Assembly: GCA_947258705.1 (NCBI GenBank)
Contig: CAMYJA010000008.1
Coordinates: 2,441 to 66,440, forward strand
Direction of reading: 5' to 3'
DNA length: 64,000 nucleotides
Source of the DNA: an uncultured Hyphomicrobiaceae bacterium
GTDB taxonomy: Bacteria > Pseudomonadota > Alphaproteobacteria > Rhizobiales > CAMYJA01
Shown: positions 23,759 through 41,087 of the stretch, in pieces
Numbering within the stretch: the stretch's first letter is position 1
Layout of the letters: the number at the start of each line of letters is the position of its first letter
Notes under the pieces: generated by a model
Seen by the model: the letters and a program-made list of their open reading frames with translations, nothing else
Told to the model about the DNA's origin: nothing
The model's database searches: none
Position numbers and translations under genes: made by a program

Positions 23759-23777
23759 CCGGGCGTGGGAGTGTCTC

Positions 23778-28506: not shown

Positions 28507-28587
28507 TAAATGGGTGCAGTCAAGCACCCTGAGTAAATGGGTGCAGTCAAGCACCCTGAATAAATAGGTGCAGTCAAGCGCACTGGA
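28507..28587. repeat. Three head-to-tail 27-bp direct repeats, each carrying a GGGTGC-N6-GCACCC palindrome
   Basis: Unit A (28507-28533) is taaatgggtgcagtcaagcaccctgag. Unit B (28534-28560) is identical at 26/27 positions. Unit C (28561-28587) is taaataggtgcagtcaagcgcactgga, 23/27 identical to B. The array ends 4 nt before the tctC SD (AGGGAG at 28592-28597). Confidence 0.9.
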
Positions 28588-28603
28588 TAATAGGGAGAAA
28601 ACA

Positions 28604-29602
28604 ATGACGAAGCACAAAGCTATATCTTTGGGCATGGCAATGGCCGGCGCCGCTGCCCTGTCCATGACAACTGGCCTGGGATCGGCACTCGCAGCCGATT
28701 GGAAACCGGCAAAGCCGGTTGAGTTTGTCGTGATGGCTGGCAAGGGTGGCGGTGCCGACAAGGCAGTGCGTTACATGCAGGGCGTTATTGCCGAAGAAAA
28801 GCTCGGGCCGACGATAACCCCGGTTAATAAGGCTGGCGGTTCGGGTGCCGTAGCGCTCAACTATTTAAAAGGCAAGAAGGGTGACAATCACACCATCATG
28901 TTCACCTTGAACAGCTTCTACACTACGCCACTTCGCCAGCCGAAGCTTGGGGTCAACATCGAAAACTTCACACCGATCATGCGGATGGCTGAGGACACCT
29001 TCTGTCTCTGGGTTAACACTGCACGCAAGGACGGCAACAACATCAAGAGCGTCGATGATTTTGTCAAAGCCGCAAAAGCGGCCGGCGATAAATGGATTAT
29101 GGCCGGTACGGGCAAGAATTCAGAAGACAATCTGCTCACGGATTTCCTTAATTCCGCTTATGGCCTGAAGATGAAGTATGTGCCGTATAAGGGCGGCGGT
29201 AAGGTGGCCAAGCAACTGGCCGGTAATAATGCCGACTCCACGGTCAACAACCCTTCGGAGCAAGAAGGTTTTTACAAGGCCGGAAATACGCGTCCCTTGG
29301 CATGTTTCACGGATAAGCGTATTCCGCTGTTCCCGGATGCTCCAACATTCAAGGAAATTGGCAAGGACTTTGTCTATTACATGCAACGGACCGTTGTCGG
29401 TACGCCCGGCATGAGTGCTGACGCCCAAAAATATTATAACGATCTCTTCACGAAGGTCTTCAATTCCAAGAAATGGCAGGCTTATCGTAAGAAGAAAGCA
29501 CTGCAGGGCGACCCGCTTGCCGGCGACGACCTGATGAAATATTGGAAGCGAGAACGCGACGTTCACAAGGCAATGCTTAAGAAAATGGGTGCAATCAAGT
29601 AG
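28604..29602 (+). CDS. tctC: Tripartite tricarboxylate transporter (TTT) substrate-binding protein, TctC/Bug family
   Basis: Start at the ATG at 28604, after AGGGAG. It has a signal peptide, MTKHKAISLGMAMAGAAALSMTTGLGSALA. YVPYKGGGKVAKQLAGNNADSTVNNPSE is the Bug-family core motif. Confidence 0.85.
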   Translation: MTKHKAISLGMAMAGAAALSMTTGLGSALAADWKPAKPVEFVVMAGKGGGADKAVRYMQGVIAEEKLGPTITPVNKAGGSGAVALNYLKGKKGDNHTIMFTLNSFYTTPLRQPKLGVNIENFTPIMRMAEDTFCLWVNTARKDGNNIKSVDDFVKAAKAAGDKWIMAGTGKNSEDNLLTDFLNSAYGLKMKYVPYKGGGKVAKQLAGNNADSTVNNPSEQEGFYKAGNTRPLACFTDKRIPLFPDAPTFKEIGKDFVYYMQRTVVGTPGMSADAQKYYNDLFTKVFNSKKWQAYRKKKALQGDPLAGDDLMKYWKRERDVHKAMLKKMGAIK

Positions 29603-29625
29603 CGCTGAAGATAGCACCAGAACTG

Positions 29626-29653
29626 GTCCCGGGGCGGAACGCCGCCCCGGGAC
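29626..29653 (+). promoter_or_regulatory. Perfect 12-bp stem-loop between tctC and tctB
   Basis: GTCCCGGGGCGG-AACG-CCGCCCCGGGAC, starting 24 nt after the tctC stop. No U-tract follows, so it is more likely an mRNA-stabilising or attenuating hairpin than a full terminator. Confidence 0.6.
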
Positions 29654-29741
29654 AAAGCTGTTCGGGGGGGCGTCGAAGCAAGCCATTCACGGCTGACAGC
29701 CGGATTTAATCGAAGACAAGTGCGATTCGGGGATATCTAAC

Positions 29742-30290
29742 GTGACTGTTCGAACGGCAGAATTGGTGATGGCGATCGTTATGGGCCTGTTCTCCGCATA
29801 TCTGATGATGAAAAGCGCGGAGCTACCTTATGGATGGATCCCGGGCGAGGGTCCCGGTGGCGGTGCCTGGCCATTCTGGTTATCGGCCATCATGCTGGTC
29901 TGCTGTATTGTCATGGTCGTTAACTGGATCCGCCGAACCAACCCTCCATCACAGGATATGGAGGCGTTCTTTCCGGCGGGTGTTCTCAAGAATTCAGGCT
30001 CCGTGGCCCTGGTTCTGACCCTCGTTGTCGGTCTGTTCAACGGTGTCGAGCTCGGCGGAGTCACATTGCTGCCGGCAATCGGGGCCTATCTGGCGATTTT
30101 CATTTTCATGGTCTTCTACGTTGGTGTGCTCGGACGGCACGACTTTGTCAAAACCGCAATATTTTCGATCAGCGTACCGGTGCTCACATTCCTCTTTTTT
30201 GAGCTGGCACTGAAGATAATACTGCCGAAAGGTGTAACAGAACCGTTGTTCCTGCCAATTTTCAAGTATTTCGGTCTGGGGGGGCTGTAG
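29742..30290 (+). CDS. tctB: TTT small membrane subunit, TctB family
   Basis: 182-aa, four-TM ORF lying between tctC and tctA in the canonical order. Confidence 0.7.
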   Translation: MTVRTAELVMAIVMGLFSAYLMMKSAELPYGWIPGEGPGGGAWPFWLSAIMLVCCIVMVVNWIRRTNPPSQDMEAFFPAGVLKNSGSVALVLTLVVGLFNGVELGGVTLLPAIGAYLAIFIFMVFYVGVLGRHDFVKTAIFSISVPVLTFLFFELALKIILPKGVTEPLFLPIFKYFGLGGL

Positions 30291-30403
30291 TCACAATCGC
30301 AGCAGGACAATAAATGGCGACGCTGATAAGAGATGGACTGCCCTGCCCGGCACACAACCTCAGCGCGGGCAGGAAAACAAACAAAGGTTGTCAGGGTTAA
30401 TAC

Positions 30404-31951
30404 ATGACTGAGATTGTCTATCTTCTTCTCGATGGTTTTTATGTCGCGTTTCAGCCGCTTAACCTCGCACTCATCGTTCTGGGATGCGCCGCCGGTCTCT
30501 TCATTGGCGCGATGCCTGGGCTTGGCTCGGTGAATGGCGTCGCGATTCTGCTGCCGCTCACTTACCTCGTGCCCCCCACGGGTGCGATCATCTTTCTGGC
30601 GGCACTTTATTATGGCGCGATGTATGGGGGTGCGATTTCATCGGTCATGCTGGGTATTCCCGGTGCGTCGACCGCGGTGGCGACGACCTTTGATGGTCGA
30701 CCATTGGCAAAGATGGGAATGGCGGACAAGGCGCTGACCGCTGCTGCGGTGGCCTCGTTTGCAGGCGGAACTATTTCCGTCATATTGTTCACGATGGCGG
30801 CGCCGCCACTGGCGCATATTGCGCTCGTTTTTGGCGACCCTGAAGAATTTGCTCTCATGATGCTGGCCTTCGCAACCTTTATCGGGCTCGGCGGCGACGA
30901 TATAGCAAAAACCATTTTCTCGATATGTATCGGTCTTGTTTTGGCAGCTGTCGGTTTTGACACGGTGTCGGGCGAACCGAGGCTGGTCTTTTTTGACATC
31001 ACCAATTTCATGGATGGCGTCAAGTTCCTCGTCCTTGCCATCGGCATCTATGGCATTGGCGAAATGCTATGGACCATTGAGGAAAATACGCGCGCCGGTG
31101 GCGCGTCTCAGCTGTCGAAGGCGACCGTCAGCCTGAAGCGGACGATTGCCAATCTGCGTGAGCTGGTACGCTCTTGGAAGACCATGGTAATGGGCTCGGT
31201 GCTCGGCTATGTTGTCGGCATTCTGCCGGCCGCTGGCGCCACACCTGGTTCGCTGATGGCTTATGGCATCGGCAAGCAGATCTCGAAAGATCCGGACTCG
31301 TTCGGCAAGGGTAATGTGGAAGGAGTCATCGCCCCGGAGGCCGCTAATAATGCGGCATCGACAGGTTCCATGCTGCCGATGCTTACGCTTGGCATTCCAG
31401 GATCGCCAACAACAGCGATTCTTCTGGGCGGCATGGTCCTGTGGGGACTGGAGCCCGGACCGCGGCTCTTCTCGGACGAGCCAAGCTTTGTCTGGGGCCT
31501 GATAGCTTCCCTTTACGTGGCCAACTTCTTTGCAGTGGTCCTGAATATTGCCTTCATCCCGGCGTTCATCTGGGTCCTCAAACTGCCCTTCACGCTGCTT
31601 GCGCCAATCATCTTCGTGCTTTGCCTTGTCGGCGGATATGCACCTACTCAATCCATGTATGATGTTTGGCTAATGCTTCTGTTTGGAATTGTGGGTTATT
31701 TGATGCGCAAGCTGGACTATCCGCTTGCCCCCGCTGTTCTTGCCATTGTTCTCGGTCCGCTGGCTGAGCGCGCGTTGCGTCAGTCCTTGTTGATCAGCGG
31801 TGGCGAATTGTCCATTTTTGTCGATCCGGTAAACCGGCCCTATGCCGCTTTCATTATGTATGCCGCACTGGTTTTGTTGTTCCTGCCGCTATTTATGATG
31901 ATCAGAAGGCGATTGACGAGCGGGAAGGCAGCCAGTACGGAGCCGAGTTAA
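30404..31951 (+). CDS. tctA: TTT large permease subunit, TctA family
   Basis: 515-aa polytopic ORF. GAMPGLGSVNGVAILLPLTY and GYVVGILPAAGATPGSLMAYG are typical TctA motifs. Confidence 0.85.
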   Translation: MTEIVYLLLDGFYVAFQPLNLALIVLGCAAGLFIGAMPGLGSVNGVAILLPLTYLVPPTGAIIFLAALYYGAMYGGAISSVMLGIPGASTAVATTFDGRPLAKMGMADKALTAAAVASFAGGTISVILFTMAAPPLAHIALVFGDPEEFALMMLAFATFIGLGGDDIAKTIFSICIGLVLAAVGFDTVSGEPRLVFFDITNFMDGVKFLVLAIGIYGIGEMLWTIEENTRAGGASQLSKATVSLKRTIANLRELVRSWKTMVMGSVLGYVVGILPAAGATPGSLMAYGIGKQISKDPDSFGKGNVEGVIAPEAANNAASTGSMLPMLTLGIPGSPTTAILLGGMVLWGLEPGPRLFSDEPSFVWGLIASLYVANFFAVVLNIAFIPAFIWVLKLPFTLLAPIIFVLCLVGGYAPTQSMYDVWLMLLFGIVGYLMRKLDYPLAPAVLAIVLGPLAERALRQSLLISGGELSIFVDPVNRPYAAFIMYAALVLLFLPLFMMIRRRLTSGKAASTEPS

Positions 31952-32125
31952 GCAGATTGACGCGATGATGCCCGCCTTGGGTTGAATGGACAGCTTGAGC
32001 AGTTTAATGTTGTATTCCTTCATGGCCCTGGTGTATGGTATACCACAGTACTAAGAGCTGAAGTCTGGGGAAATGCAGTAAACTGCACCGTTGGTGCGGG
32101 ACGGAACAAGTGAGCTTAGGAAGCC

Positions 32126-32812
32126 ATGACCAAGTTAAAAGTTGCAGTCAAACCTATAGGCCCGGATCTCAGCCTCAAAGAGAGAAGCTATCAGGCGTTG
32201 CGTGAAGCAATCACCAACATGAATATTTACGACGATAACGCTGAGCTCAAGCTCGATGAGCGTACCCTGTCGCAACAGTTCGGGATAAGCCGCACGCCAC
32301 TTCGCGAAGGTCTTGCCCGGCTGGAGCAGGAAGGGCTGATCAAGATCGTTCCGCGCCGAGGCGTCTATGTCGTGCGCAAGACCAAAGCAGAAATTCTCGA
32401 CATGATCTGCGTCTGGGCGGCGCTGGAAAGCATGGCGGCCCGGCGGGCAACCAAACTGGCGAGTGAAGAGGGTCTGAGCGCATTGCACGACCTCGTCGAC
32501 CTGTTCGATTATGACGATGTAACCGGGCACATGGGCGAATATTCTGAGGCCAATATAAAATTCCATCAGGCAATCATCGCCCTTGGCGCTTGCGATCTGA
32601 TCAAGGAGATCACCGACGGGCTATTCATGCATGTGCGCGCCATTCGTCAGCGGACCATTTTTGAAAACGACCGCGCACGCCGGTCCATCGTCGACCATAA
32701 GGAGATCGTTATTGCGTTGGAGGCGCGCGATACGGAACGCGCCGAACGTCTCGTGCGCGAACATACGCTCAAGCTGCAAGCCCATGTCGAACGATATGTA
32801 GATATTGATTAG
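32126..32812 (+). CDS. GntR-family transcriptional regulator with FCD effector domain (FadR subfamily)
   Basis: 228-aa ORF with a winged HTH (LSQQFGISRTPLREGLARLEQEGLIKIVPRRGVYV) followed by an all-helical FCD-type domain with H/D metal ligands. Confidence 0.85.
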   Translation: MTKLKVAVKPIGPDLSLKERSYQALREAITNMNIYDDNAELKLDERTLSQQFGISRTPLREGLARLEQEGLIKIVPRRGVYVVRKTKAEILDMICVWAALESMAARRATKLASEEGLSALHDLVDLFDYDDVTGHMGEYSEANIKFHQAIIALGACDLIKEITDGLFMHVRAIRQRTIFENDRARRSIVDHKEIVIALEARDTERAERLVREHTLKLQAHVERYVDID

Positions 32813-32998
32813 AAAACGGAAACAGTTAGGAATTTGCGTCGATTATGGACCATTGCGGTTATGACCACAATTAGAAGCCCGGGGATCGAAAATGGACAAC
32901 CGCCTATTTTATAACCCAAACGTCTTTGCGAGGGTTTCTAACGCAAATCTGCTTATGCTTGGATAAACGCAATTATGAAGTGACGGGGGAATTCAAAA

Positions 32999-34510
32999 GT
33001 GATTCAGGATTTGATTGCCGGACATCCCGATGACGGTCCGGCGATTGGTGCGCCAGACAGGCCATCGCTAACATTTGGCCGCTTGCGCTCGTTGATTGAT
33101 AAAACCGGTGCGGCGCTAACCGGTCTCGGAGTTAGCCGAAGCGACCGCGTGGCTATCGTTCTGCCCAACGGACCGGAGATGGCAACCGTATTCCTGGGTG
33201 TTGCCAACGCTGCGGTGGCCGCTCCTCTCAATCCGTCTTACAAACAGGATGAGTTTGAATTCTATATTTCAGATCTGAATGCAAAGCTCCTCATTGTCGA
33301 AAAAGGCAGCACATCACCTGCGGTCGAGGCGGCGGGCAAGCTAGGCGTTACTGTTGCAACAATTGAATGGCCTGACGACGCGCCTGCTGGTGATTTCGCC
33401 ATATCCGGCGCCGCTGGCACCGATGCCCCGACACCTGGGACGAAAGATGATGCCTGCCTCGTGCTTCACACGTCGGGGACCACATCGCGGCCCAAGATCG
33501 TACCGTTAAGTCATGGCAATCTGGAAGCGTCCGCGCACAATATCGGGGCGTCTTTGAAACTCACGGACAAAGACCGTTGCCTCAATGTCATGCCTCTGTT
33601 TCACATTCACGGGTTGATCGCCGCCGTCCTGTCGGGGATAGCGGCAGGTGGCGAAGTCGTATGCACACCGGGCTTCAATGCACTGCGTTTTCGCCGCTGG
33701 CTCGACGATATCAAGCCAACCTGGTACACGGCAGTGCCAACCATGCATCAAGCGATCCTATCACGGATAAAATCCTCTGATGGCATCGAGAGCAGCTTGC
33801 GGCTTATCCGTTCAAGTTCGGCTTCGCTACCACCCCAGACGATGAAAACGCTCGAAGACACCTTTGGCTGCCCAGTGGTCGAAGCCTATGGCATGACCGA
33901 AGCCGCACACCAGATGGCCTGCAATCCGTTGCCGCCCGCGCCGCGCAAGGCGGGAACCGTCGGCATTGCGGCCGGGCCGGAAGTCGCCATCGCCGATGCC
34001 AGCGGTCAGATACTGAATCAAGGCGCACTCGGAGAGATCGTTATCTCAGGCGCCAACGTGACGGCTGGCTATGAGAACAATCCAACCGCCAATGCAGAAA
34101 ACTTCTTTGACCGGACCGATGGCAAAGGCCGCTGGTTCCGCACTGGCGATCAAGGCACTCTGGATGAAGAAGGCTATTTGTCCATCACCGGTCGCATCAA
34201 GGAAATCATCAACCGCGGGGGCGAGAAGATTTCCCCACGCGAGGTCGATGAAGTATTGTTGGACCACGAGGCGGTAGGGCAGGTTGTGACATTTGCCCTG
34301 CCCCATGACACGCTTGGAGAGGACGTTGCGGCTATCATTGTCCTAAATGAAGGCGCGGAGGCAAATGAACGTGAAATTCGCGATTTTGCAGCCACCCGGC
34401 TCGCAGCGTTCAAGGTACCGCGCAACATATTTTTCATGGATGAAATTCCAAAAGGTGCCACCGGCAAGCTGCAACGCATAGGTCTGGCTGAGAAACTGGG
34501 GCTAGTTTAA
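32999..34510 (+). CDS. AMP-forming acyl-CoA synthetase of the AAE3/Pcs60 type; candidate oxalate-CoA ligase (oxalyl-CoA synthetase)
   Basis: 503-aa ORF with a GTG start. It carries the AMP-binding motif LHTSGTTSRPK. Long stretches agree with my recollection of plant AAE3: DEFEFYISDLNAKLL, PLFHIHGL, TWYTAVPTMHQAIL, LRLIRSSSASL, EAYGMTEAAHQMACNPLP, GRIKEIINRGGEKISPREVDEVLL and LAAFKVPRNIFFMDEIPKGATGKLQR. Confidence 0.7.
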   Translation: MIQDLIAGHPDDGPAIGAPDRPSLTFGRLRSLIDKTGAALTGLGVSRSDRVAIVLPNGPEMATVFLGVANAAVAAPLNPSYKQDEFEFYISDLNAKLLIVEKGSTSPAVEAAGKLGVTVATIEWPDDAPAGDFAISGAAGTDAPTPGTKDDACLVLHTSGTTSRPKIVPLSHGNLEASAHNIGASLKLTDKDRCLNVMPLFHIHGLIAAVLSGIAAGGEVVCTPGFNALRFRRWLDDIKPTWYTAVPTMHQAILSRIKSSDGIESSLRLIRSSSASLPPQTMKTLEDTFGCPVVEAYGMTEAAHQMACNPLPPAPRKAGTVGIAAGPEVAIADASGQILNQGALGEIVISGANVTAGYENNPTANAENFFDRTDGKGRWFRTGDQGTLDEEGYLSITGRIKEIINRGGEKISPREVDEVLLDHEAVGQVVTFALPHDTLGEDVAAIIVLNEGAEANEREIRDFAATRLAAFKVPRNIFFMDEIPKGATGKLQRIGLAEKLGLV

Positions 34511-35484
34511 TGCGTGTTTGTATTTATGGTGCTGGAGCTATTGGCGGCTACGTCGCAGTACAACTTCATCTGGCGGGCGTCGAAACCAGCCTCGTTGCCC
34601 GTGGCCCACATCTCGAGGCCATCAGGAAAGACGGCCTGCGACTGCGTATTGGCGGCGAAGAACGGGTCGCAAATCTGCCTGCAAGTGCCGACCCGCAGGA
34701 ACTTGGTCTTCAGGATGTCGTGATCATCACGCTCAAGGCGCATTCGGTGCCAAACGTCGTCGATGGCGTCGCCTCGCTACTCGATAAAGACGGCTCGGTT
34801 GTCAGCGCCGTTAATGGTGTGCCGTGGTGGTATTTTTACAAAAACCCTGGAAAGTGGGAAGACCGACGTTTGGAGACAGTCGATCCGGGTGGGCGTCAAT
34901 GGGACGTGTTGAAACCTGAACGCGTCATTGGCTGCGTTGTCTACCCGGCCTGTGAAATCGTTGAACCCGGCGTCATCGCCCATGTCGAAGGCGACCGGTT
35001 TTCCCTTGGTGAACCGGATGGCGAAAAGACACCGCGCATCCAGGCCATTTCGGACGCTTTCCGCAGCGCAGGATTTAAGGCGCCGGTCCGCCCCCGTATT
35101 CGCGATGAAATCTGGGTCAAGCTGTGGGGCAATCTCACATTCAACCCGTTGAGCGCACTCACCGGAGCCACACTGGAACAGCTATGCAGTGATGACGATA
35201 TGCTCGAAATCGTCCGCGCCATGATGACAGAGGCGCAAACCATCGGCGAGACCCTTGACGTGCGTTTTCCTGTATCCCTTGAAAAGCGCATCGCCGGTGC
35301 AAAAGCGGTCGGAGCACACAAACCTTCCATGCTGCAGGATCTGGAACTGGGTCGTCCCATGGAAATTGACGCGCTGGTAAGCGCAGTTCAGGAATTGGGT
35401 CGGCTGACCGAAGTTCCCACACCGGTGATCGACATGGTGCTCACACTCGTTCGTCAGCGCGCCCGGCTAGCCGGTTGTTATTGA
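34510..35484 (+). CDS. ApbA/PanE-family 2-dehydropantoate 2-reductase-like oxidoreductase; candidate oxalyl-CoA reductase (PanE2 type)
   Basis: 324-aa ORF with an N-terminal Rossmann motif, MRVCIYGAGAIGGYVAVQL, and a C-terminal KPSMLQDLELGRPMEIDAL motif typical of ketopantoate-reductase-fold enzymes. Its ATG overlaps the ligase stop (TAATG at 34508-34512). Confidence 0.6.
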   Translation: MRVCIYGAGAIGGYVAVQLHLAGVETSLVARGPHLEAIRKDGLRLRIGGEERVANLPASADPQELGLQDVVIITLKAHSVPNVVDGVASLLDKDGSVVSAVNGVPWWYFYKNPGKWEDRRLETVDPGGRQWDVLKPERVIGCVVYPACEIVEPGVIAHVEGDRFSLGEPDGEKTPRIQAISDAFRSAGFKAPVRPRIRDEIWVKLWGNLTFNPLSALTGATLEQLCSDDDMLEIVRAMMTEAQTIGETLDVRFPVSLEKRIAGAKAVGAHKPSMLQDLELGRPMEIDALVSAVQELGRLTEVPTPVIDMVLTLVRQRARLAGCY

Positions 35485-35710
35485 GGGCAGGTATTGTTAT
35501 TTCACCGGCAAAAACCCTGCCACCGCCAACAGCAATCCCCGTCGCCAGCGCAGCAGCCTCCACTGCTTTCCCCATAGCTTCACCGCAAACATCAATCCCA
35601 AAGCCCGCGGGTTCCATCCACTAAGGATTGTCGGATGCCTGCCGCGCTCAAATTCGTGTGCTATCTAGTGACGGTTCATTACGTAGTTAAGACTCATTAA
35701 ACGGTGGAGG

Positions 35711-36535
35711 TTAATGTTTTCTGCCACCAATGGCTTCGGTGATTCTGGCTGCCGTACGTTTTACCAAGGGGCCAAATTCGCCGAGAACCTCATTTGTCAT
35801 GCGTACGCTTGGTCCTGAGATGGAAATACCGGCGATGGCTTCATTGTGCTCATTATAGATGGGAGCAGCCAGGCATCGCATGCCGATATTGCGCTCCTCA
35901 TTGTCGATCGCCCAGCCGCGCGCGCGCGTTTGTTCGAGATCCGCAAAAAGCACTTCCGTGGACGTGATCGTATTCGGGGTGAATGAGGGCAGCCCTCTTT
36001 TCTGCATGATTTGCTGAACGGCATCGCGCGCGAGTTCGGATAAAAGCGCCTTGCCAATTCCCGACGAATGCATGTTCCCGCGTGTTCCAGGCGGGAAGAA
36101 GGCGCGTATTGCTTCATGTGTTTCCACCTGAGATATGAAGACAACTTCGCCATCAATTGCGATGGCCAGATTAGCCGTCTCACCTGTCGCCTCCATCAAT
36201 TCGCGCATCAGCGGGCGACTGGCCTGAACGACATTTGTCTGGCGAATGAACGAGCTACCGATGCGGAAGGCTTCTACTCCGATCATCCAGTTCTGGGTAC
36301 CCTCTTCGAATGCTACCATTCCGTGCCTTTGCATCGTCATCAGCAACCGATGTGCGGTTGACGGCGCCATACCGGTCCTGTGCGCCAATTCGGTCAAAGT
36401 GCCCTCATCGAGTTCGGTCAGACTATTGAGCAGCCCGAGCGCCCGATCCAGAGCCTGAACAGTCCCTCCCGCCTTTTCGGGACTGCCGGAACGGGGCCGG
36501 CCACGCGTCTTCTTATATTTGGCCTCTGTCGGCAT
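35711..36535 (-). CDS. bhcR: IclR-family transcriptional regulator (BhcR-like)
   Basis: 274-aa ORF with an HTH (LTELAHRTGMAPSTAHRLLMTMQRHGMV) plus an IclR effector domain. It is divergent from a four-gene operon with the bhcABCD fold order. Confidence 0.65.
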   Translation of the reverse strand: MPTEAKYKKTRGRPRSGSPEKAGGTVQALDRALGLLNSLTELDEGTLTELAHRTGMAPSTAHRLLMTMQRHGMVAFEEGTQNWMIGVEAFRIGSSFIRQTNVVQASRPLMRELMEATGETANLAIAIDGEVVFISQVETHEAIRAFFPPGTRGNMHSSGIGKALLSELARDAVQQIMQKRGLPSFTPNTITSTEVLFADLEQTRARGWAIDNEERNIGMRCLAAPIYNEHNEAIAGISISGPSVRMTNEVLGEFGPLVKRTAARITEAIGGRKH

Positions 36536-36761
36536 TTTCCCCTCTCTATTTTGTACGCGTCTCTCACACGCCTAACCATGAACGATTTCAGGATATTATT
36601 CCATCATAAGTCAATTTTCATATGTGAAATATATATTATTCATATTTATCAACGGGTTGTCTTATTTTTCCATATAATGATAAATATTTTCAGAAAAATT
36701 GCGGCCCTGTCCGGTGCATAATATATAATTCCCTTAAACAATCTTTCCTGGAGCGTACGCC

Positions 36762-37952: not shown

Positions 37953-37959
37953 GGATGTC

Positions 37960-38928
37960 ATGACAGATAACAGCGATCTCTATATTCCCACATTCTGCGA
38001 CATGCTTGAGGCCCATGAACGGATCAGGCCCTATGTCCATAAAACGCCTGTCCTGACATCGAGCTACTTAAACAGCCTGATCGGCGCGGAGATTTTTTTC
38101 AAATGCGAGAATTTTCAGAAGGCTGGCGTTTTCAAGGCGCGCGGCGCATCAAATGCCGTATTCGGACTTGATGAAGAAAAAGCCAAGAAGGGGGTCGCCA
38201 CGCATTCTTCCGGCAATCACGGCCTGTCGCTATCCTATGCTGCCGGCAGGCGCGGCATCACGGCGACGGTGGTCATGCCGCACACAGCGCCCGATGCCAA
38301 GAAGGACGCCGTGCGCGGCTATGGTGGAACGATTGTGGAATGCGAACCCTCGACCTCTTCGCGCGAGGCCGTTTTCGCTGAAGTGGTCGAAAAAACTGGC
38401 GCTGATTTCATCCACCCCTATAATGATCCAAGGGTAGTCGCGGGTCAGGGCACCTGTTCGCGCGAAATGCTGGAACAGGTTGACGATCTCGATGCCATTA
38501 TCGCCCCCATCGGCGGCGGCGGCATGGTGTCTGGAACCTGTCTGACTCTATCCAACATGGCGCCAAATATTAAGATCTATGCAGCCGAGCCGAAGAACGC
38601 CGATGACGCCTATCGTTCATTCAAGGCCGGTCACATCATCGCTGACGATGCGCCGCAAACCGTAGCAGATGGCCTCAAGGTGCCACTGAAGGACCTCACC
38701 TGGCATTTTGTCTCCAACTATGTAGAAGACATCTTGCTGGCAACGGAAGAAGAGATTATCGACGCGATGAAGCTCACATGGGAGCGCATGAAGATCGTCA
38801 TGGAGCCGTCAAGTGCCGTGCCGCTCGCTACTATGATTAAGAACAAACCCGTTTTTGCAGGAAAGCGCGTCGGTGTTATCATTACCGGCGGCAATGTCGA
38901 CCTCGACAAGCTGCCATGGAACAAATGA
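37960..38928 (+). CDS. bhcB: PLP-dependent Ser/Thr dehydratase-fold enzyme (3-hydroxyaspartate ammonia-lyase type); BhcB-like beta-hydroxyaspartate dehydratase
   Basis: Start at the ATG at 37960 (MTDNSDLY), 8 nt after the bhcA stop. It has the PLP-lysine motif CENFQKAGVFKARGA, the SSGNHG loop and GGGGMVSG. Confidence 0.65.
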   Translation: MTDNSDLYIPTFCDMLEAHERIRPYVHKTPVLTSSYLNSLIGAEIFFKCENFQKAGVFKARGASNAVFGLDEEKAKKGVATHSSGNHGLSLSYAAGRRGITATVVMPHTAPDAKKDAVRGYGGTIVECEPSTSSREAVFAEVVEKTGADFIHPYNDPRVVAGQGTCSREMLEQVDDLDAIIAPIGGGGMVSGTCLTLSNMAPNIKIYAAEPKNADDAYRSFKAGHIIADDAPQTVADGLKVPLKDLTWHFVSNYVEDILLATEEEIIDAMKLTWERMKIVMEPSSAVPLATMIKNKPVFAGKRVGVIITGGNVDLDKLPWNK

Positions 38929-38945
38929 TTAGGGAGGAATTAGAG

Positions 38946-40109
38946 ATGACCGCACATTTTAAGCCCGAGGAATACGAAGTCGGATATAACATCCCCGCAG
39001 CCGTCGGCATGGATGAAGCTGATATCCAGACCCCTTGCCTGGTCCTCGATCTCGATGCGCTTGAGCGCAATATCAAGAAGATGGGGCAATTCGCCAAGGA
39101 CATGGGCGTACGCCACCGGGTGCATGGCAAGATGCATAAATCGGTGGACGTAGCGCTTCTGCAGGAAAAGCTGGGCGATTCATGTGGTGTTTGCTGCCAG
39201 AAGGTCAGCGAGGCCGAAGCATTTGCCCGCGGTGGCATCAAGGACGTTCTGGTTTCCAATCAGGTGACCGATCCGGCCAAGATTGACCGCCTTGCGCGCA
39301 TGCCGAAACTTGGAGCTCGCACCATTGTTTGCGTGGATAATGTCGATAATGTTGCCGACCTTTCGGCAGGGGCGCAAAAGCACGGTACCACCATTGAGTG
39401 TCTCGTCGAGATTGATTGCGGTGCCGGACGCTGCGGCGTAACCACGACACCGGAGGTTTTGGAAATCGCCAGGGCGATTGCGGCAGCCCCTGGACTCAAA
39501 TTTTCAGGAATCCAGGCCTATCAGGGCGCCATGCAACACATGGACAAATATGAAGACAGGAAGGAAAAGATCGATATTGCGGTCGCCATGGTAAAGGATG
39601 CGGTCGAGGCATTGAAAGCCGAGGGAATGGAATGCGATATCGTTGGCGGCGGCGGCACAGGTTCTTACTATTTCGAAGGAACCTCCGGCGTTTACAATGA
39701 ATTACAATGCGGTTCCTACGCCTTTATGGATGCCGATTATGGCCGCATCCTCGATAAGGACGGTAACCGTATAGATCAGGGTGAATGGGAAAACGCCTTG
39801 TTTATCCTCACAACCGTGATGAGCCATGTGAAGGCCAATCTAGCCGTTTGCGATGCCGGCCTTAAGGCACAGTCAGTGGACTCCGGCCTTCCGGTGGTCT
39901 TTGGCCGCGATGATGTGAAATATTTCAAATGCTCCGACGAGCACGGTGTTATCGAAGATCCCGATGGCGCATTGAAGATCAATGACAAACTAAAGCTCGT
40001 TCCCGGTCATTGTGACCCGACCTGCAACGTTCACGACTGGTATGTCGGCGTGCGCAACGGCAAGGTTGAATGCCTGTGGCCGGTAACGGCCCGCGGCCTG
40101 GCCTATTGA
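38946..40109 (+). CDS. bhcC: DSD1/alanine-racemase-fold PLP enzyme (D-threonine-aldolase / D-3-hydroxyaspartate type); BhcC-like beta-hydroxyaspartate aldolase
   Basis: The preferred start is the ATG at 38946, 8 nt after AGGGAGG (38931-38937). TPCLVLDLDALERNIKKM and HGKMHKS form the fold-type III N-terminal barrel with its PLP lysine. The C-terminal LVPGHCDPT is a D-serine-dehydratase-like motif. Confidence 0.65.
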   Translation: MTAHFKPEEYEVGYNIPAAVGMDEADIQTPCLVLDLDALERNIKKMGQFAKDMGVRHRVHGKMHKSVDVALLQEKLGDSCGVCCQKVSEAEAFARGGIKDVLVSNQVTDPAKIDRLARMPKLGARTIVCVDNVDNVADLSAGAQKHGTTIECLVEIDCGAGRCGVTTTPEVLEIARAIAAAPGLKFSGIQAYQGAMQHMDKYEDRKEKIDIAVAMVKDAVEALKAEGMECDIVGGGGTGSYYFEGTSGVYNELQCGSYAFMDADYGRILDKDGNRIDQGEWENALFILTTVMSHVKANLAVCDAGLKAQSVDSGLPVVFGRDDVKYFKCSDEHGVIEDPDGALKINDKLKLVPGHCDPTCNVHDWYVGVRNGKVECLWPVTARGLAY

Positions 40110-40121
40110 CGGGAGTTTGCT

Positions 40122-41087
40122 TTGCTTATCATATCCGAAGAGACCTGCCAGCAAGTCATAGATCGCTCCGATGCTTTCACTGCGGTGGAAAATGTTTTCG
40201 CCGCTATGGCGCGGGGCGATGCCTATAATTTCCCCGTCATCCGGGAAGACATTGGCCACGCAGATGCGCTTTATGGCTTCAAATCCGGTTTTGACCGGGC
40301 GGGTTTGGTACTCGGCGTGAAGTCGGGCGGCTACTGGCCGGGCAATGCAGAAAAAGGACTGACCAACCACCAGTCGACAGTATTCCTGTTCGATCCTGAT
40401 ACCGGTCAACTCAAAGCCCTGGTGGGAGGTAACTACCTCACGGCCATGCGTACGGCCGCTTCCAGCGCAGTTTCGATCTCCCATCTCTCTCGCGAAGATT
40501 CAAAGGTGCTCGGTATGGTCGGTGCGGGGCACCAAGCCGCCTTCCAATTGCGTGCGGCAGCTGAGCAGCGAAAATTCGAACGAGTTGTCGCCTGGAATTT
40601 TCATCCCGAGATGTTGCCGGGGCTTGCCGAGGTCGCCGGCGAGATCGGGTTGCCATTTGAGGCCGTCGAGAGAGAACAGCTGGGTGCCGAAGCGGATGTC
40701 ATCATCACGATAACGTCTTCCCATGAACCGCTGATGATGAAGGAATGGATCAAGCCGGGTACCCATCTCGCGTGTATGGGTACGGACACCAAGGGCAAGC
40801 AGGAGGTCGATCCGGCTCTTGTCGCACGCGCAATGCTTTTTGCAGACGAAGTGTCTCAATCAGCCACGATTGGTGAAACGCAACATGCCGTTTCTGCTGG
40901 ATTGATTGACGAGGGCGCGATTACACCCGTTGGCAAGGTCATCAATGGTGCTCATCCGGGCCGGCAATCCGAAAATGACATTACTTTATTTGACGGCACG
41001 GGCGTGGGGTTGCAGGATTTAGCGGTAGCAAATGTTGCTGCAAATCTCGCGCAGGAGCGGGGATTGGCAGGACTGGCGGAGTTGTAG
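40122..41087 (+). CDS. bhcD: Ornithine cyclodeaminase/mu-crystallin family protein; BhcD-like iminosuccinate reductase
   Basis: 321-aa ORF with a TTG start after GGGAG. NYLTAMRTAASSAVS and the Rossmann motif GMVGAGHQAAFQL are typical of the OCD/mu-crystallin family. It is the fourth gene of the cluster. Confidence 0.65.
   Translation: MLIISEETCQQVIDRSDAFTAVENVFAAMARGDAYNFPVIREDIGHADALYGFKSGFDRAGLVLGVKSGGYWPGNAEKGLTNHQSTVFLFDPDTGQLKALVGGNYLTAMRTAASSAVSISHLSREDSKVLGMVGAGHQAAFQLRAAAEQRKFERVVAWNFHPEMLPGLAEVAGEIGLPFEAVEREQLGAEADVIITITSSHEPLMMKEWIKPGTHLACMGTDTKGKQEVDPALVARAMLFADEVSQSATIGETQHAVSAGLIDEGAITPVGKVINGAHPGRQSENDITLFDGTGVGLQDLAVANVAANLAQERGLAGLAEL

What the first reader, a model, noticed from the sequence alone, without database searches (positions are those of the whole stretch)
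28507..41087. Candidate undescribed route: oxalate uptake, activation and reduction wired directly into the beta-hydroxyaspartate cycle
Seen in sequence: six co-directional genes (tctC, tctB, tctA, a GntR-FCD regulator, the oxalyl-CoA-synthetase-like ligase and the PanE2-like reductase) end 226 bp from an IclR regulator, which is divergent from genes with the fold order of bhcABCD. Established knowledge: BhcABCD converts two glyoxylate into oxaloacetate without CO2 loss. It was described in Paracoccus denitrificans for glycolate and glyoxylate. Oxs plus PanE2 yields glyoxylate from oxalate. Inference: together this 12.6-kb block encodes a complete, carbon-conserving oxalate -> oxalyl-CoA -> glyoxylate -> beta-hydroxyaspartate -> oxaloacetate pathway. 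It has its own high-affinity TTT uptake system and two regulators. To my knowledge, oxalate assimilation has been tied to the glycerate or serine pathways and not to the BHAC. No TTT/Bug protein is an established oxalate binder either.
Basis: partly seen in the sequence, partly recalled or inferred. Interest (0 to 1): 0.8.

Follow-up and report, generated by a model that had tools for sequence, protein, structure and literature searches.

The report
Oxalate-to-glyoxylate genes beside beta-hydroxyaspartate cycle
A marine-type alphaproteobacterial genome places a transporter, a regulator and two enzymes that should turn oxalate into glyoxylate right next to the four-enzyme beta-hydroxyaspartate cycle that turns glyoxylate into oxaloacetate; the same pairing recurs in cultured Mameliella and Sagittula, so an undescribed but plausible oxalate assimilation route can now be tested.

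Summary
tctC, tctB, tctA, a GntR/FCD regulator, an AMP-forming ligase and a PanE-like reductase run co-directionally. They end 226 bp, tail to tail, from bhcR, which is divergent from bhcABCD.

- **bhc genes:** all five pass NCBIfam equivalog cut-offs.
- **Ligase:** it keeps the three oxalate-contacting residues of Arabidopsis AAE3, and its best solved relatives are oxalate-CoA ligases.
- **Reductase:** it is 49% identical to the characterised M. extorquens oxalyl-CoA reductase PanE2. Its family sits beside frc, oxc, oxlT or gcl in other genomes.
- **TTT+GntR cassette:** in a relative it lies between formate dehydrogenase genes and oxc.

Adjacency to bhc is rare. It occurs in 1 of 80 reductase loci and in 0 of 41 informative bhc loci, and it is absent from the nearest relatives. 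It does recur as bhcRABCD-oxs-panE2 in Mameliella sediminis, M. alba and Sagittula stellata. A BhcR-box-like site lies upstream of tctC (3 of 3000 shuffles reach its score).

Best reading: an oxalate feeder module joined to the BHAC through glyoxylate. This is a new combination of known modules, inferred only from sequence. The route needs outside reductant and ATP. I found no paper describing it.

The parts
27003..27848 (-). Tandem universal-stress-protein (Usp) gene, divergent from tctC. It probably travels with the TTT cassette.
   Evidence: PF00582, two Usp stretches. A 79% identical Usp sits in the same divergent position next to tctCBA-gntR in the closest relative, L176. Usp genes lie near TTT-oxs-panE2 in 7 other loci but are only about 26% identical.
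28273..28289 (-). Candidate BhcR-box-like site (ATAAAAATTTATTTCAA) about 315 bp upstream of the tctC ATG
   Evidence: It scores 19.4 with a weight matrix built from the boxes of the other bhc loci, without the window. That is the best hit in the 64-kb window with that matrix; the genuine bhcA box region scores 17.8 (19.6 when the window's own box is included). 3 of 3000 dinucleotide shuffles of the intergenic region reach this score. Only one other site of 19 or more lies outside bhc genes and promoters in about 2.4 Mb of fetched loci. It lacks the AAAAATTG extension and is not conserved in L176.
28505..28590 (+). 3.2 tandem copies of a 27-bp unit (AATAAATGGGTGCAGTCAAGCACCCTG), each holding the palindrome GGGTGC-N6-GCACCC, immediately before the tctC start. 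Candidate operator array.
   Evidence: TRF score 137. 4 matches to the core against 0.47 expected by chance. A single copy lies at the same place in L176. The motif is absent from all other fetched loci. Which protein binds it is unknown.
28604..29602 (+). tctC: periplasmic solute-binding protein of a tripartite tricarboxylate transporter, proposed oxalate binder
   Evidence: PF03401. It belongs to a large orthogroup with 70-93% identity. An 83% homologue lies between formate dehydrogenase genes and gntR-oxc in L178.
29742..30290 (+). tctB: small membrane subunit
   Evidence: PF07331
30404..31951 (+). tctA: large membrane subunit
   Evidence: PF01970, 493 bits. 61-68% identical to TctA next to oxs-panE2 in 11 genomes.
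32126..32812 (+). GntR/FCD-family regulator of the oxalate module
   Evidence: PF00392 + PF07729. 49-56% identical regulators occur in the GTDB loci, most of them with frc/oxc, gcl or oxlT nearby (Xanthobacter, Azorhizobium, Ancylobacter, R. palustris, Azospirillum). 69% identical in the fds-tctCBA-gntR-oxc locus L178 and 88% in L176.
32999..34510 (+). oxs: AAE3-type oxalyl-CoA synthetase (oxalate + ATP + CoA -> oxalyl-CoA + AMP + PPi)
   Evidence: Best PDB matches are 5IE0 (411 bits), 6QJZ (394) and 8AFF (374), all oxalate-CoA ligases. The next, non-oxalate enzyme scores 209. The AAE3 residues S289, H319, K500, H216 and M314 are conserved; V215I, C288S and A313G differ.
34510..35484 (+). panE2-like oxalyl-CoA reductase (oxalyl-CoA + NADPH -> glyoxylate + CoA)
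   Evidence: 49% identity over 322 aa, E 7e-103, to M. extorquens PanE2. NF005089 scores 493 bits. The ligase lies directly upstream in about 55 of 80 genomes. The family neighbours frc (12 loci), oxc (6), oxlT (6) and gcl (5).
35711..36535 (-). bhcR: IclR-type, glyoxylate-responsive regulator of the bhc cluster
   Evidence: NF045644 equivalog, 379 bits against a cut-off of 350
36677..36702 (+). BhcR box plus putative -35 element (ATGATAAATATTTTCAG-AAAAATTG) upstream of bhcA
   Evidence: The element TGGAAA-N4-TTTTCAG-AAAAATTG is conserved in 61 bhcR-bhcA spacers. It fits the palindrome upstream of the -35 region reported for P. denitrificans (PMC11323563).
36762..37952 (+). bhcA: aspartate-glyoxylate aminotransferase
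   Evidence: NF045640, 706 bits against a cut-off of 650
37984..38928 (+). bhcB: beta-hydroxyaspartate dehydratase
   Evidence: NF045641, 599 bits against 550; the profile starts at residue 38 of the long ORF
38916..40109 (+). bhcC: beta-hydroxyaspartate aldolase
   Evidence: NF045642, 750 bits against 690
40122..41087 (+). bhcD: iminosuccinate reductase
   Evidence: NF045643, 580 bits against 500
41254..41330 (-). tRNA-Arg(CCT), which marks the right-hand boundary of the block
   Evidence: ARAGORN and Rfam, 71.5 bits

Best explanation
The block is two known metabolic modules placed side by side, connected through one diffusible metabolite, glyoxylate.

**Module 1 (27.0-35.5 kb).** TctCBA takes up oxalate. 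The AAE3-type ligase makes oxalyl-CoA at the cost of ATP going to AMP. The PanE2-like reductase reduces oxalyl-CoA to glyoxylate with NAD(P)H. The GntR/FCD protein controls this module.

**Module 2 (35.7-41.1 kb).** This is a bona fide bhcR/bhcABCD cluster. By analogy with Paracoccus denitrificans, rising glyoxylate acts on BhcR and switches on bhcABCD. Those enzymes condense two glyoxylate into oxaloacetate without losing CO2.

**Net reaction (inferred from the known reactions).** 2 oxalate + 2 ATP (to AMP) + 2 NADPH + 1 NADH give 1 oxaloacetate. The route therefore conserves carbon but consumes reductant and ATP. It should serve assimilation or co-assimilation, with energy coming from elsewhere, for example an oxc/frc/formate dehydrogenase branch or other substrates outside this window.

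**What is shown.** Gene identities, signature residues, gene order, recurrence of the pairing in other genera, and association of each part with oxalate genes elsewhere.

**What is inferred.** Substrates of TctC, the ligase and the reductase; direction of flux; induction through glyoxylate; and any direct control of tctC by BhcR.
For: **Ligase.**
- The best solved relatives are the oxalate-CoA ligases AtAAE3, LsOCS and yeast Pcs60, at 411, 394 and 374 bits. The best non-oxalate enzyme scores 209.
- The three residues that contact oxalate in AtAAE3 (S289, H319, K500) are conserved. S289 and H319 are reported as conserved only among oxalyl-CoA synthetases (PMC8905533; alignment).

**Reductase.**
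- It is 49% identical over its full length to M. extorquens PanE2. That enzyme's activity was characterised in PMC8411744.
- For comparison, C. necator ApbA2 is 51% identical to PanE2 and was chosen as the candidate enzyme and tested by deletion for growth on oxalate (PMC7486775).

**The oxs-panE2 cassette.**
- The ligase lies next to the reductase in about 55 of 80 species genomes.
- Where the ligase is missing, the reductase sits with frc, oxc, oxlT and gcl and, in Azospirillum, with oxlT and gcl.

**TTT and GntR.**
- tctCBA lies beside the reductase in 18 of 80 loci, 7 of them with frc (4 also with oxc).
- In L178, TctC (83% identical) and GntR (69%) lie between formate dehydrogenase subunits and oxc.

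**bhc cluster.**
- All five NCBIfam equivalogs score above their cut-offs.
- The conserved BhcR box is present.

**Recurrence of the pairing.**
- The arrangement bhcR(-)-bhcABCD-oxs-panE2-(2-hydroxyacid dehydrogenase) occurs in M. sediminis L050, M. alba L170 and S. stellata L172.
- bhc clusters also sit next to other glyoxylate-producing modules: glcDEF in Rhizobium, in the same convergent position next to bhcR, and allantoin/ureidoglycolate genes in Marinovum.

**Regulation.**
- A BhcR-box-like site lies upstream of tctC, reached by 3 of 3000 shuffles.
- BhcR is a glyoxylate-responsive activator. Oxalate stabilised its DNA binding in vitro (PMC11323563).
Against: - The two modules are convergent and have separate regulators, so there is no shared transcript in this genome.
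- The adjacency is rare: 1 of 80 reductase loci. None of the 80 bhc loci most similar to this one has it, and 41 of them had at least 2 kb of informative flank. Only 18 plasmid records carry a PanE2-like gene, against 220 records that matched a query spanning oxs, panE2, bhcR and bhcA, most of them through bhcR-bhcA; I did not cross-check the two sets directly.
- The closest relatives lack the adjacency. The 83% reductase relatives have oxs-panE2 without TTT or bhc. The 93% TctC relative has Usp/tctCBA/gntR without oxs-panE2. The arrangement is therefore recent or unstable.
- The candidate BhcR box upstream of tctC lacks the extended motif, lies about 315 bp from the start codon in AT-rich DNA, and is not conserved in L176.
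- There is no oxc, frc or formate dehydrogenase in the 64-kb window. Only a decayed fdhD/mobB remnant is present.
- P. denitrificans, the BHAC model organism, does not grow on oxalate.
- No biochemical data exist for any protein of this window.
Confidence: 0.65

Rival explanations
1. The adjacency is coincidental. The oxalate module and the bhc cluster are independent units that landed next to each other near a tRNA gene. Oxalate-derived glyoxylate may go mainly to another sink elsewhere in the genome, such as the glycerate pathway, malate synthase or the glycine/serine route.
For: - The junction is convergent and each module has its own regulator.
- The nearest relatives lack the adjacency.
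- None of 41 informative bhc loci has it.
- A tRNA-Arg and decayed genes lie at the right border.
- In other genomes the same reductase family sits with gcl.
Against: - The same pairing occurs in a different and tighter arrangement in Mameliella (two species) and Sagittula. Direct adjacency of two specific cassettes in genomes of 4-5 Mb is unlikely to arise by chance repeatedly; that is my own rough estimate and was not formally tested.
- bhc clusters are repeatedly flanked by other glyoxylate-producing modules.
- There is a candidate BhcR box upstream of tctC.
Confidence: 0.2
2. The cassette works mainly in the other direction or for detoxification. PanE2 would act as a CoA-acylating glyoxylate dehydrogenase that drains excess glyoxylate to oxalyl-CoA, as proposed for C. 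necator. Alternatively, the pair only scavenges or detoxifies intracellular oxalate and does not support assimilation.
For: - The PanE2 reaction is reversible, and a glyoxylate to oxalyl-CoA to formyl-CoA route contributes to glycolate metabolism in C. necator (PMC7486775).
- The oxalate to oxaloacetate route costs ATP and reductant (inference).
- There is no energy-yielding branch in the window.
Against: - An AMP-forming oxalyl-CoA synthetase, translationally coupled to the reductase (its stop overlaps the reductase start), and a dedicated binding-protein-dependent importer make sense only for using external oxalate.
- No oxc or frc lies in or near the block to remove oxalyl-CoA.
- Loss of oxs plus panE2 impairs oxalate assimilation in M. 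extorquens. This is my recollection of Schneider et al. 2012, J Bacteriol 194:3144; the paper is not in the held library.
Confidence: 0.08
3. The TTT system and the GntR regulator handle a different small acid, such as glyoxylate, glycolate or another dicarboxylate. Oxalate would enter by another carrier or arise inside the cell.
For: - No TTT binding protein is known to bind oxalate.
- The 93% identical cassette in L176 has no oxs-panE2 after it, and the 79% homologue in L177 has unrelated neighbours.
- Other genomes pair oxs-panE2 with ABC or TRAP systems instead.
Against: - tctCBA is next to the reductase in 18 of 80 loci, including loci with frc (4 also with oxc) that lack the ligase.
- L178 has FDH-tctCBA-gntR-oxc.
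- The GntR orthologues track oxalate loci.
Confidence: 0.07

Closest known systems
Oxs-PanE2 oxalate assimilation of Methylobacterium (Methylorubrum) extorquens AM1 (Schneider et al. 2012, J Bacteriol 194:3144). PanE2 activity was characterised in PMC8411744.
   Same: The two chemical steps are the same: oxalate to oxalyl-CoA to glyoxylate. The genes form an adjacent ligase-reductase pair. The reductase is 49% identical to PanE2.
   Different: In M. extorquens the glyoxylate enters a serine-cycle variant, and energy comes from oxc, frc and formate dehydrogenase. Here the neighbour is the BHAC, a TTT importer and a GntR regulator are attached, and no oxc or frc is in the window. I could not compare the M. 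extorquens Oxs sequence because it was not available.
Beta-hydroxyaspartate cycle, bhcR/bhcABCD, of Paracoccus denitrificans (Schada von Borzyskowski et al. 2019, Nature 575:500; regulation in PMC11323563)
   Same: All four enzymes and the divergent IclR-type regulator pass the equivalog models. The gene order is the same. A conserved operator-like box lies upstream of bhcA.
   Different: The cycle was described for glycolate and glyoxylate, fed by glycolate oxidase, and P. denitrificans does not grow on oxalate. Here the adjacent feeder is an oxalate module, and there is no glcDEF in the window.
Cupriavidus necator ApbA2 with frc-oxc and the glycerate pathway (PMC7486775), and the Azospirillum-type oxlT-panE2...gcl loci
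   Same: The reductase family is the same: ApbA2 is 51% identical to PanE2, and the Azospirillum proteins are about 61% identical to the window's. The logic is also the same: oxalyl-CoA reduction supplies glyoxylate to a glyoxylate-assimilation module.
   Different: There, CoA activation is by Frc transfer and assimilation is by glyoxylate carboligase, with loss of CO2. Here activation is by an ATP-dependent ligase, and assimilation would be through the BHAC without loss of CO2.
AAE3/Pcs60 oxalyl-CoA synthetases of plants and yeast (PDB 5IE0-5IE3, 6QJZ, 8AFF)
   Same: ANL fold, oxalate-contact residues S289, H319 and K500, and a score gap of about 200 bits over other acyl-CoA ligases.
   Different: The eukaryotic enzymes feed oxalyl-CoA decarboxylation (degradation). 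The bacterial one is coupled to a reductase. Three pocket residues differ conservatively (V215I, C288S, A313G).
Tripartite tricarboxylate transporters (TctCBA for citrate; Bug, AdpC and TphC-type binding proteins)
   Same: Three-component architecture with TctC, TctB and TctA domains.
   Different: The proposed ligand, oxalate, a C2 dicarboxylate, has not been reported for the family in the held literature. The regulator is a GntR/FCD protein, not the TctDE two-component system.

Membership tests
AAE3-type oxalyl-CoA synthetase (oxalate-CoA ligase, EC 6.2.1.8) | ANL-superfamily architecture (AMP-binding N-terminal domain plus C-terminal domain) | tested here: met
   PF00501 at 252 bits and PF13193 at 56 bits
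AAE3-type oxalyl-CoA synthetase (oxalate-CoA ligase, EC 6.2.1.8) | Oxalate-contacting residues Ser289, His319 and Lys500 (AtAAE3 numbering). [quoted passage not shown] | tested here: met
   All three are conserved in the HMMER alignment to 5IE0. Pocket residues H216 and M314 are also kept; V215I, C288S and A313G differ.
AAE3-type oxalyl-CoA synthetase (oxalate-CoA ligase, EC 6.2.1.8) | Closer to characterised oxalate-CoA ligases than to any other characterised acyl-CoA ligase | tested here: met
   411, 394 and 374 bits to AAE3, LsOCS and Pcs60, against 209 bits for FadD13 and 200 for malonyl-CoA synthetase. No NCBIfam equivalog reached its cut-off.
AAE3-type oxalyl-CoA synthetase (oxalate-CoA ligase, EC 6.2.1.8) | Oxalate-dependent formation of oxalyl-CoA | not testable with these tools
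   Needs an enzyme assay
PanE2-type oxalyl-CoA reductase / CoA-acylating glyoxylate dehydrogenase (EC 1.2.1.17) | Full-length homology to the characterised M. extorquens PanE2, well above that to true ketopantoate reductases | tested here: met
   49% identity over 322 aa, 293 bits. Solved ketopantoate reductases score 86 bits or less, apart from the uncharacterised 3GHY at 268 bits.
PanE2-type oxalyl-CoA reductase / CoA-acylating glyoxylate dehydrogenase (EC 1.2.1.17) | Genomic association with oxalyl-CoA-forming or oxalate genes | tested here: met
   The ligase is adjacent in about 55 of 80 loci. Frc is nearby in 12, oxc in 6, oxlT in 6 and gcl in 5.
PanE2-type oxalyl-CoA reductase / CoA-acylating glyoxylate dehydrogenase (EC 1.2.1.17) | NAD(P)H-dependent reduction of oxalyl-CoA to glyoxylate | not testable with these tools
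   Needs an enzyme assay
Beta-hydroxyaspartate cycle gene cluster (bhcR/bhcABCD) | All four enzymes (BhcA, BhcB, BhcC, BhcD) and BhcR recognised by equivalog-level models above the curated cut-off | tested here: met
   706/650, 599/550, 750/690, 580/500 and 379/350 bits
Beta-hydroxyaspartate cycle gene cluster (bhcR/bhcABCD) | Gene order bhcA-B-C-D with divergent bhcR, and a conserved operator upstream of bhcA | tested here: met
   Coordinates. The box at 36677-36702 matches the element conserved in 61 loci.
Beta-hydroxyaspartate cycle gene cluster (bhcR/bhcABCD) | Glyoxylate-dependent induction and conversion of glyoxylate to oxaloacetate | not testable with these tools
   Known for P. denitrificans only (PMC11323563)
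Tripartite tricarboxylate transporter (TTT) | Three components: TctC binding protein, TctB small membrane protein and TctA large membrane protein | tested here: met
   PF03401, PF07331 and PF01970 in three consecutive genes
Tripartite tricarboxylate transporter (TTT) | Identity of the ligand (oxalate proposed) | not testable with these tools
   Only association evidence is available. Two of the three close homologues I looked up lack an oxalate context.
GntR family, FadR/FCD subfamily regulator | N-terminal GntR winged helix plus C-terminal FCD domain | tested here: met
   PF00392 at 49 bits and PF07729 at 80 bits. No NCBIfam equivalog reached its cut-off.

The most novel reading that the evidence does not exclude
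The oxalate module is part of the BhcR regulon. BhcR would bind the box at 28273-28289 and so couple expression of a TTT importer, the first of that family specific for oxalate, to intracellular glyoxylate. In Mameliella and Sagittula, oxs-panE2 would be co-transcribed with bhcABCD. Together these would define a natural, CO2-neutral 'oxalate-BHAC' route that marine Alphaproteobacteria use to co-assimilate oxalate.
Probability: 0.3. Interest if true: 0.65.

Novelty: new variant of a known kind. Interest (0 to 1): 0.55.

Why it matters
Oxalate is among the most oxidised organic carbon sources. The known bacterial assimilation routes are the glycerate pathway and the serine-cycle variant, and the glycerate route loses CO2 at glyoxylate carboligase. 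Feeding oxalate-derived glyoxylate into the BHAC would be a carbon-conserving alternative.

It would also widen the known role of the BHAC from glycolate and glyoxylate to oxalate. This fits a picture in which bhc clusters pick up interchangeable glyoxylate-producing feeder modules: glycolate oxidase, purine/allantoin genes and now oxalate genes.

It would give the TTT family a new class of ligand. It may also interest pathway engineers, who already combine Oxs/PanE2 and the BHAC separately.

The idea is cheap to test, because the same pairing occurs in cultured strains (Sagittula stellata, Mameliella alba).

Tried and rejected
- **Schneider et al. 2012.** I tried to read the paper (by DOI and as PMC3370878). 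It is not held. The M. extorquens Oxs sequence and locus tags could not be checked. I recovered the PanE2 sequence from a codon-optimised cassette in the supplement of PMC12686821.
- **First neighbour census.** Choosing the longest ORFs picked spurious antisense ORFs in GC-rich loci. I redid it with a GC3-weighted choice.
- **Origin of the window.** The window's own reductase is not on record for a contig look-up, and cluster names for its closest relatives were uninformative. The organism is therefore only inferred to be an uncultured alphaproteobacterium. The best species-level relative of the reductase is a Rhodospirillaceae MAG at 68%.
- **27-bp repeat.** I searched for its core in all fetched loci to test whether it is a conserved GntR operator. 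It occurs only in the window and as one copy in L176. No binding protein can be assigned.
- **Other intergenic regions of the oxalate module.** I looked for BhcR-like boxes in four of them (tctC-tctB, tctB-tctA, tctA-gntR, gntR-oxs) and in the panE2-bhcR junction. There are none; all scores are below 0. There are also none in the bhcD-oxs gaps of Mameliella and Sagittula.
- **Rfam scan of 27.0-42.6 kb.** It found only a tRNA and no riboswitch.
- **Promoter and terminator scan.** The counts do not exceed the shuffled expectation, so the scan gave no information on operon structure.
- **Usp gene.** I tested whether it is an orthologous part of the cassette across genomes. That holds only for L176 (79%); elsewhere identity is about 26%.
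- **Considered and rejected.** The ligase as a fatty-acid or malonyl-CoA ligase: the NCBIfam FadD7 and malonyl-CoA models score below their cut-offs, and the oxalate-CoA ligases score about 200 bits higher. The reductase as a pantothenate-pathway ketopantoate reductase: its genomic context and the PanE2 match argue against it.

Full report
**1. The observation**

| Gene | Coordinates | Strand | Evidence |
|---|---|---|---|
| tctC | 28568 or 28604-29602 | + | PF03401 |
| tctB | 29742-30290 | + | PF07331 |
| tctA | 30404-31951 | + | PF01970, 493 bits |
| GntR/FCD regulator | 32126-32812 | + | PF00392 + PF07729 |
| AMP-binding ligase | 32999-34510 | + | PF00501 + PF13193 |
| ApbA/PanE-type reductase | 34510-35484 | + | start overlaps the ligase stop |
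| bhcR | 35711-36535 | - | equivalog, 379 bits (cut-off 350) |
| bhcA | 36762-37952 | + | 706 bits (cut-off 650) |
| bhcB | about 37984-38928 | + | 599 bits (cut-off 550) |
| bhcC | 38916-40109 | + | 750 bits (cut-off 690) |
| bhcD | 40122-41087 | + | 580 bits (cut-off 500) |

The bhc genes are therefore members of the family, not only look-alike folds.

The two modules are separate transcription units in this genome.

The rest of the window is ordinary chromosomal context: a TonB-dependent receptor, efflux systems, CarD, a helicase, CobS/CobT and AroB. There is no oxc, frc, formate dehydrogenase, gcl or glcDEF.

**2. What the ligase and reductase are**

*Ligase.* Against all solved structures, its three best matches are oxalate-CoA ligases: Arabidopsis AAE3 (411 bits), Lathyrus OCS (394) and yeast Pcs60 (374). 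The next enzyme, FadD13, scores 209.

The Lathyrus paper lists the AAE3 oxalate pocket as V215-H216, C288-S289, A313-M314, H319 and K500. S289, H319 and K500 contact oxalate, and S289 and H319 are conserved only among oxalyl-CoA synthetases (PMC8905533). In the alignment to 5IE0, the window protein keeps S289, H319, K500, H216 and M314. It has I, S and G at positions 215, 288 and 313.

*Reductase.* I recovered the M. extorquens PanE2 sequence (WP_015822665) from a yeast expression cassette in the supplement of PMC12686821. The window protein is 49% identical to it over 322 residues, E 7e-103.

PanE2 was characterised as an oxalyl-CoA reductase in PMC8411744. C. necator ApbA2, which was picked as the candidate enzyme and tested by deletion for growth on oxalate, is 51% identical to PanE2 (PMC7486775). 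True ketopantoate reductases of known structure score 86 bits or less.

**3. The cassette and its company in other genomes**

I scanned one genome per GTDB species with a reductase alignment and kept the 80 most similar loci, at 59-69% identity. I analysed them by tblastn and by clustering the neighbouring ORFs.

| Neighbour of the reductase | Loci (of 80) |
|---|---|
| Oxs-like ligase directly upstream | about 55 |
| tctCBA | 18 |
| formyl-CoA transferase (frc) | 12 |
| oxalyl-CoA decarboxylase (oxc) | 6 |
| OxlT antiporter | 6 |
| glyoxylate carboligase (gcl) | 5 |

- Where the ligase is absent, the reductase sits with frc, oxc, oxlT or gcl. An annotated Azospirillum replicon shows oxlT, the reductase and gcl within 9 kb. 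This context independently supports the oxalyl-CoA reductase assignment.
- Of the 18 tctCBA loci, 11 also have the ligase (Marivita, Maliponia, Roseovarius, Rhodobacter, Aestuariivita, Rubrimonas and MAGs). The other 7 have frc, 4 of them also oxc, but no ligase (Xanthobacter, Azorhizobium, Afipia, R. palustris BisB18).
- Regulators 49-56% identical to the window's GntR occur in the GTDB loci, most of them with frc/oxc, gcl or oxlT nearby.
- Other genomes attach ABC or TRAP systems instead. The importer is an exchangeable part.

**4. The TTT+GntR cassette itself**

TctC belongs to a populous orthogroup with 70-93% identity. I could look up three members.

| Locus | TctC identity | Context |
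|---|---|---|
| L178 | 83% (TctA 82%, GntR 69%) | The cassette lies between two formate dehydrogenase subunits and an oxc that is 85% identical to Xanthobacter Oxc. This is a canonical oxalate locus. |
| L176 | 93% | Usp, tctCBA and gntR are all present (79-94% identity), but no oxs-panE2 follows. |
| L177 | 79% | Unrelated neighbours. |

The oxalate assignment of the transporter is therefore well motivated by association but not proven. I found no paper reporting a TTT protein that binds oxalate.

**5. How often the oxalate cassette and bhc are neighbours**

*From the reductase side.*
- Only 1 of the 80 GTDB loci carries bhc: Mameliella sediminis. The order there is bhcR(-), bhcABCD, oxs, panE2 and a D-2-hydroxyacid dehydrogenase, all co-directional after bhcR.
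- The closest relatives of the window's reductase (83%) have oxs-panE2 without bhc or TTT.

*From the bhc side.*
- I fetched the 80 metagenomic loci most similar to the window's BhcA, at 68-76% identity.
- None has an Oxs-like or PanE2-like gene. Of these loci, 34 extend at least 2 kb beyond bhcR and 26 extend at least 2 kb beyond bhcD.
- Among plasmids, 220 records matched a query spanning oxs, panE2, bhcR and bhcA, most of them through bhcR-bhcA. Only 18 carry a PanE2-like gene.

*A targeted look at Roseobacter-group homologues of the Mameliella reductase.*
- The same bhcRABCD-oxs-panE2-dehydrogenase arrangement is present in Mameliella alba (L170) and in Sagittula stellata (L172). The Sagittula Bhc enzymes (BhcA-D) are 69-78% identical to the window's, and its downstream flank differs.
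- It is absent in Antarctobacter jejuensis and in Marinibacterium.
- Citreimonas has an ScfR/RamB-like regulator followed by tctCBA-oxs-panE2.

The pairing is thus uncommon but not unique. It occurs in at least two different architectures: convergent in the window and co-directional in Mameliella and Sagittula. Within the Mameliella/Maliponia/Antarctobacter group, the slot upstream of oxs-panE2 holds either tctCBA or bhcRABCD.

bhc clusters also neighbour other glyoxylate producers.
- glcDEF lies convergent with bhcR in Rhizobium sophoriradicis, positionally equivalent to oxs-panE2 in the window.
- Allantoin and ureidoglycolate genes flank bhc in Marinovum algicola.
- Both kinds of neighbour occur in a few metagenomic loci.

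This supports a general picture of the BHAC as a glyoxylate sink with exchangeable feeder modules.

**6. Regulation**

Aligning 61 bhcR-bhcA spacers reveals a strongly conserved element, TGGAAA-N4-TTTTCAG-AAAAATTG. In the window it lies at 36677-36702. This agrees with the palindrome upstream of the bhcA -35 region reported for P. denitrificans, where BhcR is a glyoxylate-responsive activator (PMC11323563).

I built a weight matrix for the 17-nt core without the window's own box.
- Its best hit in the 64-kb window is at 28273-28289, in the AT-rich spacer upstream of tctC. It scores 19.4. The genuine bhcA box region scores 17.8 with this matrix and 19.6 when the window's own box is included.
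- Only 3 of 3000 dinucleotide shuffles of that spacer reach 19.4, and only 2 of 3000 shuffles of its 181-bp AT-rich core do.
- In about 2.4 Mb of fetched loci, only one other site outside bhc genes and promoters scores 19 or more.

Against this, the site lacks the AAAAATTG extension, lies about 315 bp from the start codon, and is not conserved in L176, whose contig carries no bhc. I treat it as a candidate for direct wiring, not a finding.

Two further observations bear on regulation.
- In Mameliella and Sagittula, the GC-rich gaps of 135-212 bp between bhcD and oxs contain no box. This is compatible with read-through from the bhc promoter, but that is an inference.
- Just before tctC there are 3.2 tandem copies of a 27-bp unit with the palindrome GGGTGC-N6-GCACCC. 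L176 has one copy. Its binding protein is unknown.

The P. denitrificans work also showed that oxalate stabilises BhcR-DNA binding in vitro, and that this strain does not grow on oxalate.

**7. Mechanism and its limits**

The most likely sequence of events is:

1. TctCBA imports oxalate.
2. Oxs activates it to oxalyl-CoA.
3. PanE2 reduces oxalyl-CoA to glyoxylate.
4. Glyoxylate, through BhcR, induces bhcABCD.
5. BhcA, BhcC, BhcB and BhcD convert two glyoxylate to oxaloacetate.

From the known stoichiometries, two oxalate need two ATP (to AMP), two NADPH and one NADH per oxaloacetate. This is my inference. Oxalate carries only two electrons per molecule, so the route cannot by itself yield much energy.

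An oxalate-oxidising branch (oxc, frc and formate dehydrogenase) or another energy source must exist elsewhere, or the route serves co-assimilation. The window shows only a decayed chimeric fdhD/mobB ORF at 41609-42172. It lies beyond a tRNA-Arg(CCT) gene that sits 166 bp after bhcD.

**8. Comparison with what is known, and novelty**

Each module is known:
- Oxs/PanE2 in M. extorquens, which feeds the serine cycle;
- PanE2-like reductases with frc/oxc and the glycerate pathway in Cupriavidus and Azospirillum-type loci;
- the BHAC for glycolate and glyoxylate in Paracoccus.

What is new is the combination and the proposed ligand of the TTT system. Full-text searches found nothing on oxalate plus the BHAC, oxalate plus bhcA, oxalyl-CoA plus Roseobacter, TTT plus oxalate, or oxalate plus Sagittula or Mameliella. 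The library lacks most subscription journals, including the 2019 Nature paper and the 2012 J Bacteriol paper.

I rate it a new variant of a known kind, with moderate interest. A specialist would find it plausible and not astonishing. It is directly testable in cultured strains and relevant to carbon-conserving C2 metabolism.

**9. Verdict**

'Directly wired' should be read as 'adjacent and metabolically connected, possibly co-regulated'.
- The adjacency is rare and recent in this lineage.
- The block covers assimilation only.
- Confidence in the proposed function is about 0.65.

Noticed in passing
window 41254-41330 (-) and 41609-42172 (-): A tRNA-Arg(CCT) gene lies 166 bp after bhcD. Beyond it is a 187-aa chimeric ORF. 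Its N-terminal part matches the middle of FdhD (profile positions 65-169 of 237) and its C-terminal part matches the end of MobB. It looks like a deletion-fused remnant of formate dehydrogenase maturation genes. About 500 bp around it has no convincing ORF. This may be the edge of a rearranged or acquired segment.
   Followed up: partly
window 28505-28590: A 27-bp unit is repeated 3.2 times immediately upstream of the tctC start codon. Each copy carries the palindrome GGGTGC-AGTCAA-GCACCC. The closest relative (L176) has a single copy, so the array expanded recently. The long GTG-initiated tctC ORF (28568) starts inside the repeat. The real start is probably the ATG at 28604.
   Followed up: partly
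L123:10133, L125:10136, L132:10136, L150:3342, L091:10136 (about +133 nt inside bhcA): A strong BhcR-box-like palindrome (for example TTGAAAAAGATTTTCAA, score up to 22) recurs at the same position inside the bhcA coding sequence in several metagenomic bhc loci. It may be an internal operator or only a conserved codon pattern. The window has no strong hit at that position.
   Followed up: no
L088 (Marinovum algicola pMaD4) and L089 (Rhizobium sophoriradicis pCC511_1); also L108, L110, L117, L148: bhc clusters sit directly beside other glyoxylate-producing modules. glcDEF lies convergent with bhcR in Rhizobium. Allantoin, ureidoglycolate, uricase and purine-permease genes flank bhc in Marinovum. 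This suggests the BHAC also serves purine-derived glyoxylate.
   Followed up: partly
L050:10971-11954, L170:9986-10954, L172:10051-11025, L042:10974-11954: A D-isomer-specific 2-hydroxyacid dehydrogenase, similar to glyoxylate/hydroxypyruvate reductases, directly follows panE2 in Mameliella, Sagittula and Maliponia. The window has no such gene. It could reduce glyoxylate to glycolate or act on hydroxypyruvate. Its role beside oxs-panE2 is unexplained.
   Followed up: no
13 of the loci L001-L087 (for example L071:2056-3030); also L001:6504-7187: A fumarylacetoacetate-hydrolase-family protein recurs near PanE2-like reductases, often together with frc or oxlT. Its function in oxalate loci is unknown.
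   Followed up: no
L002:4978-6198 (-) (Rhodospirillaceae MAG, closest GTDB relative of the reductase): A class-V aminotransferase 47% identical to BhcA lies about 2 kb upstream of oxs-panE2, without bhcBCD. It may be a glyoxylate aminotransferase that links the cassette to glycine/serine metabolism instead.
   Followed up: no
L178:4752-9372 and 13465-14995: In a Pseudomonadota MAG, NAD-linked formate dehydrogenase subunits, tctCBA, gntR and oxc form one compact locus. This is the clearest association of the TTT orthogroup with oxalate catabolism. The contig ends inside oxc.
   Followed up: partly
window 28184-28205 and 28425-28447: Segments conserved between the window and L176 upstream of tctC contain CTGGTAT...ATACCAG-type half-sites that resemble GntR/FadR-type operators. 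A palindrome CGTGAA-N-TTTCACG at about 28482-28497 is also conserved.
   Followed up: no
window 17234-26897: Upstream of the block lie two export systems: a HlyD-type adaptor with a fused ABC/ABC-2 exporter, and a second adaptor with an RND permease of 1039 aa. They appear unrelated to the finding.
   Followed up: no
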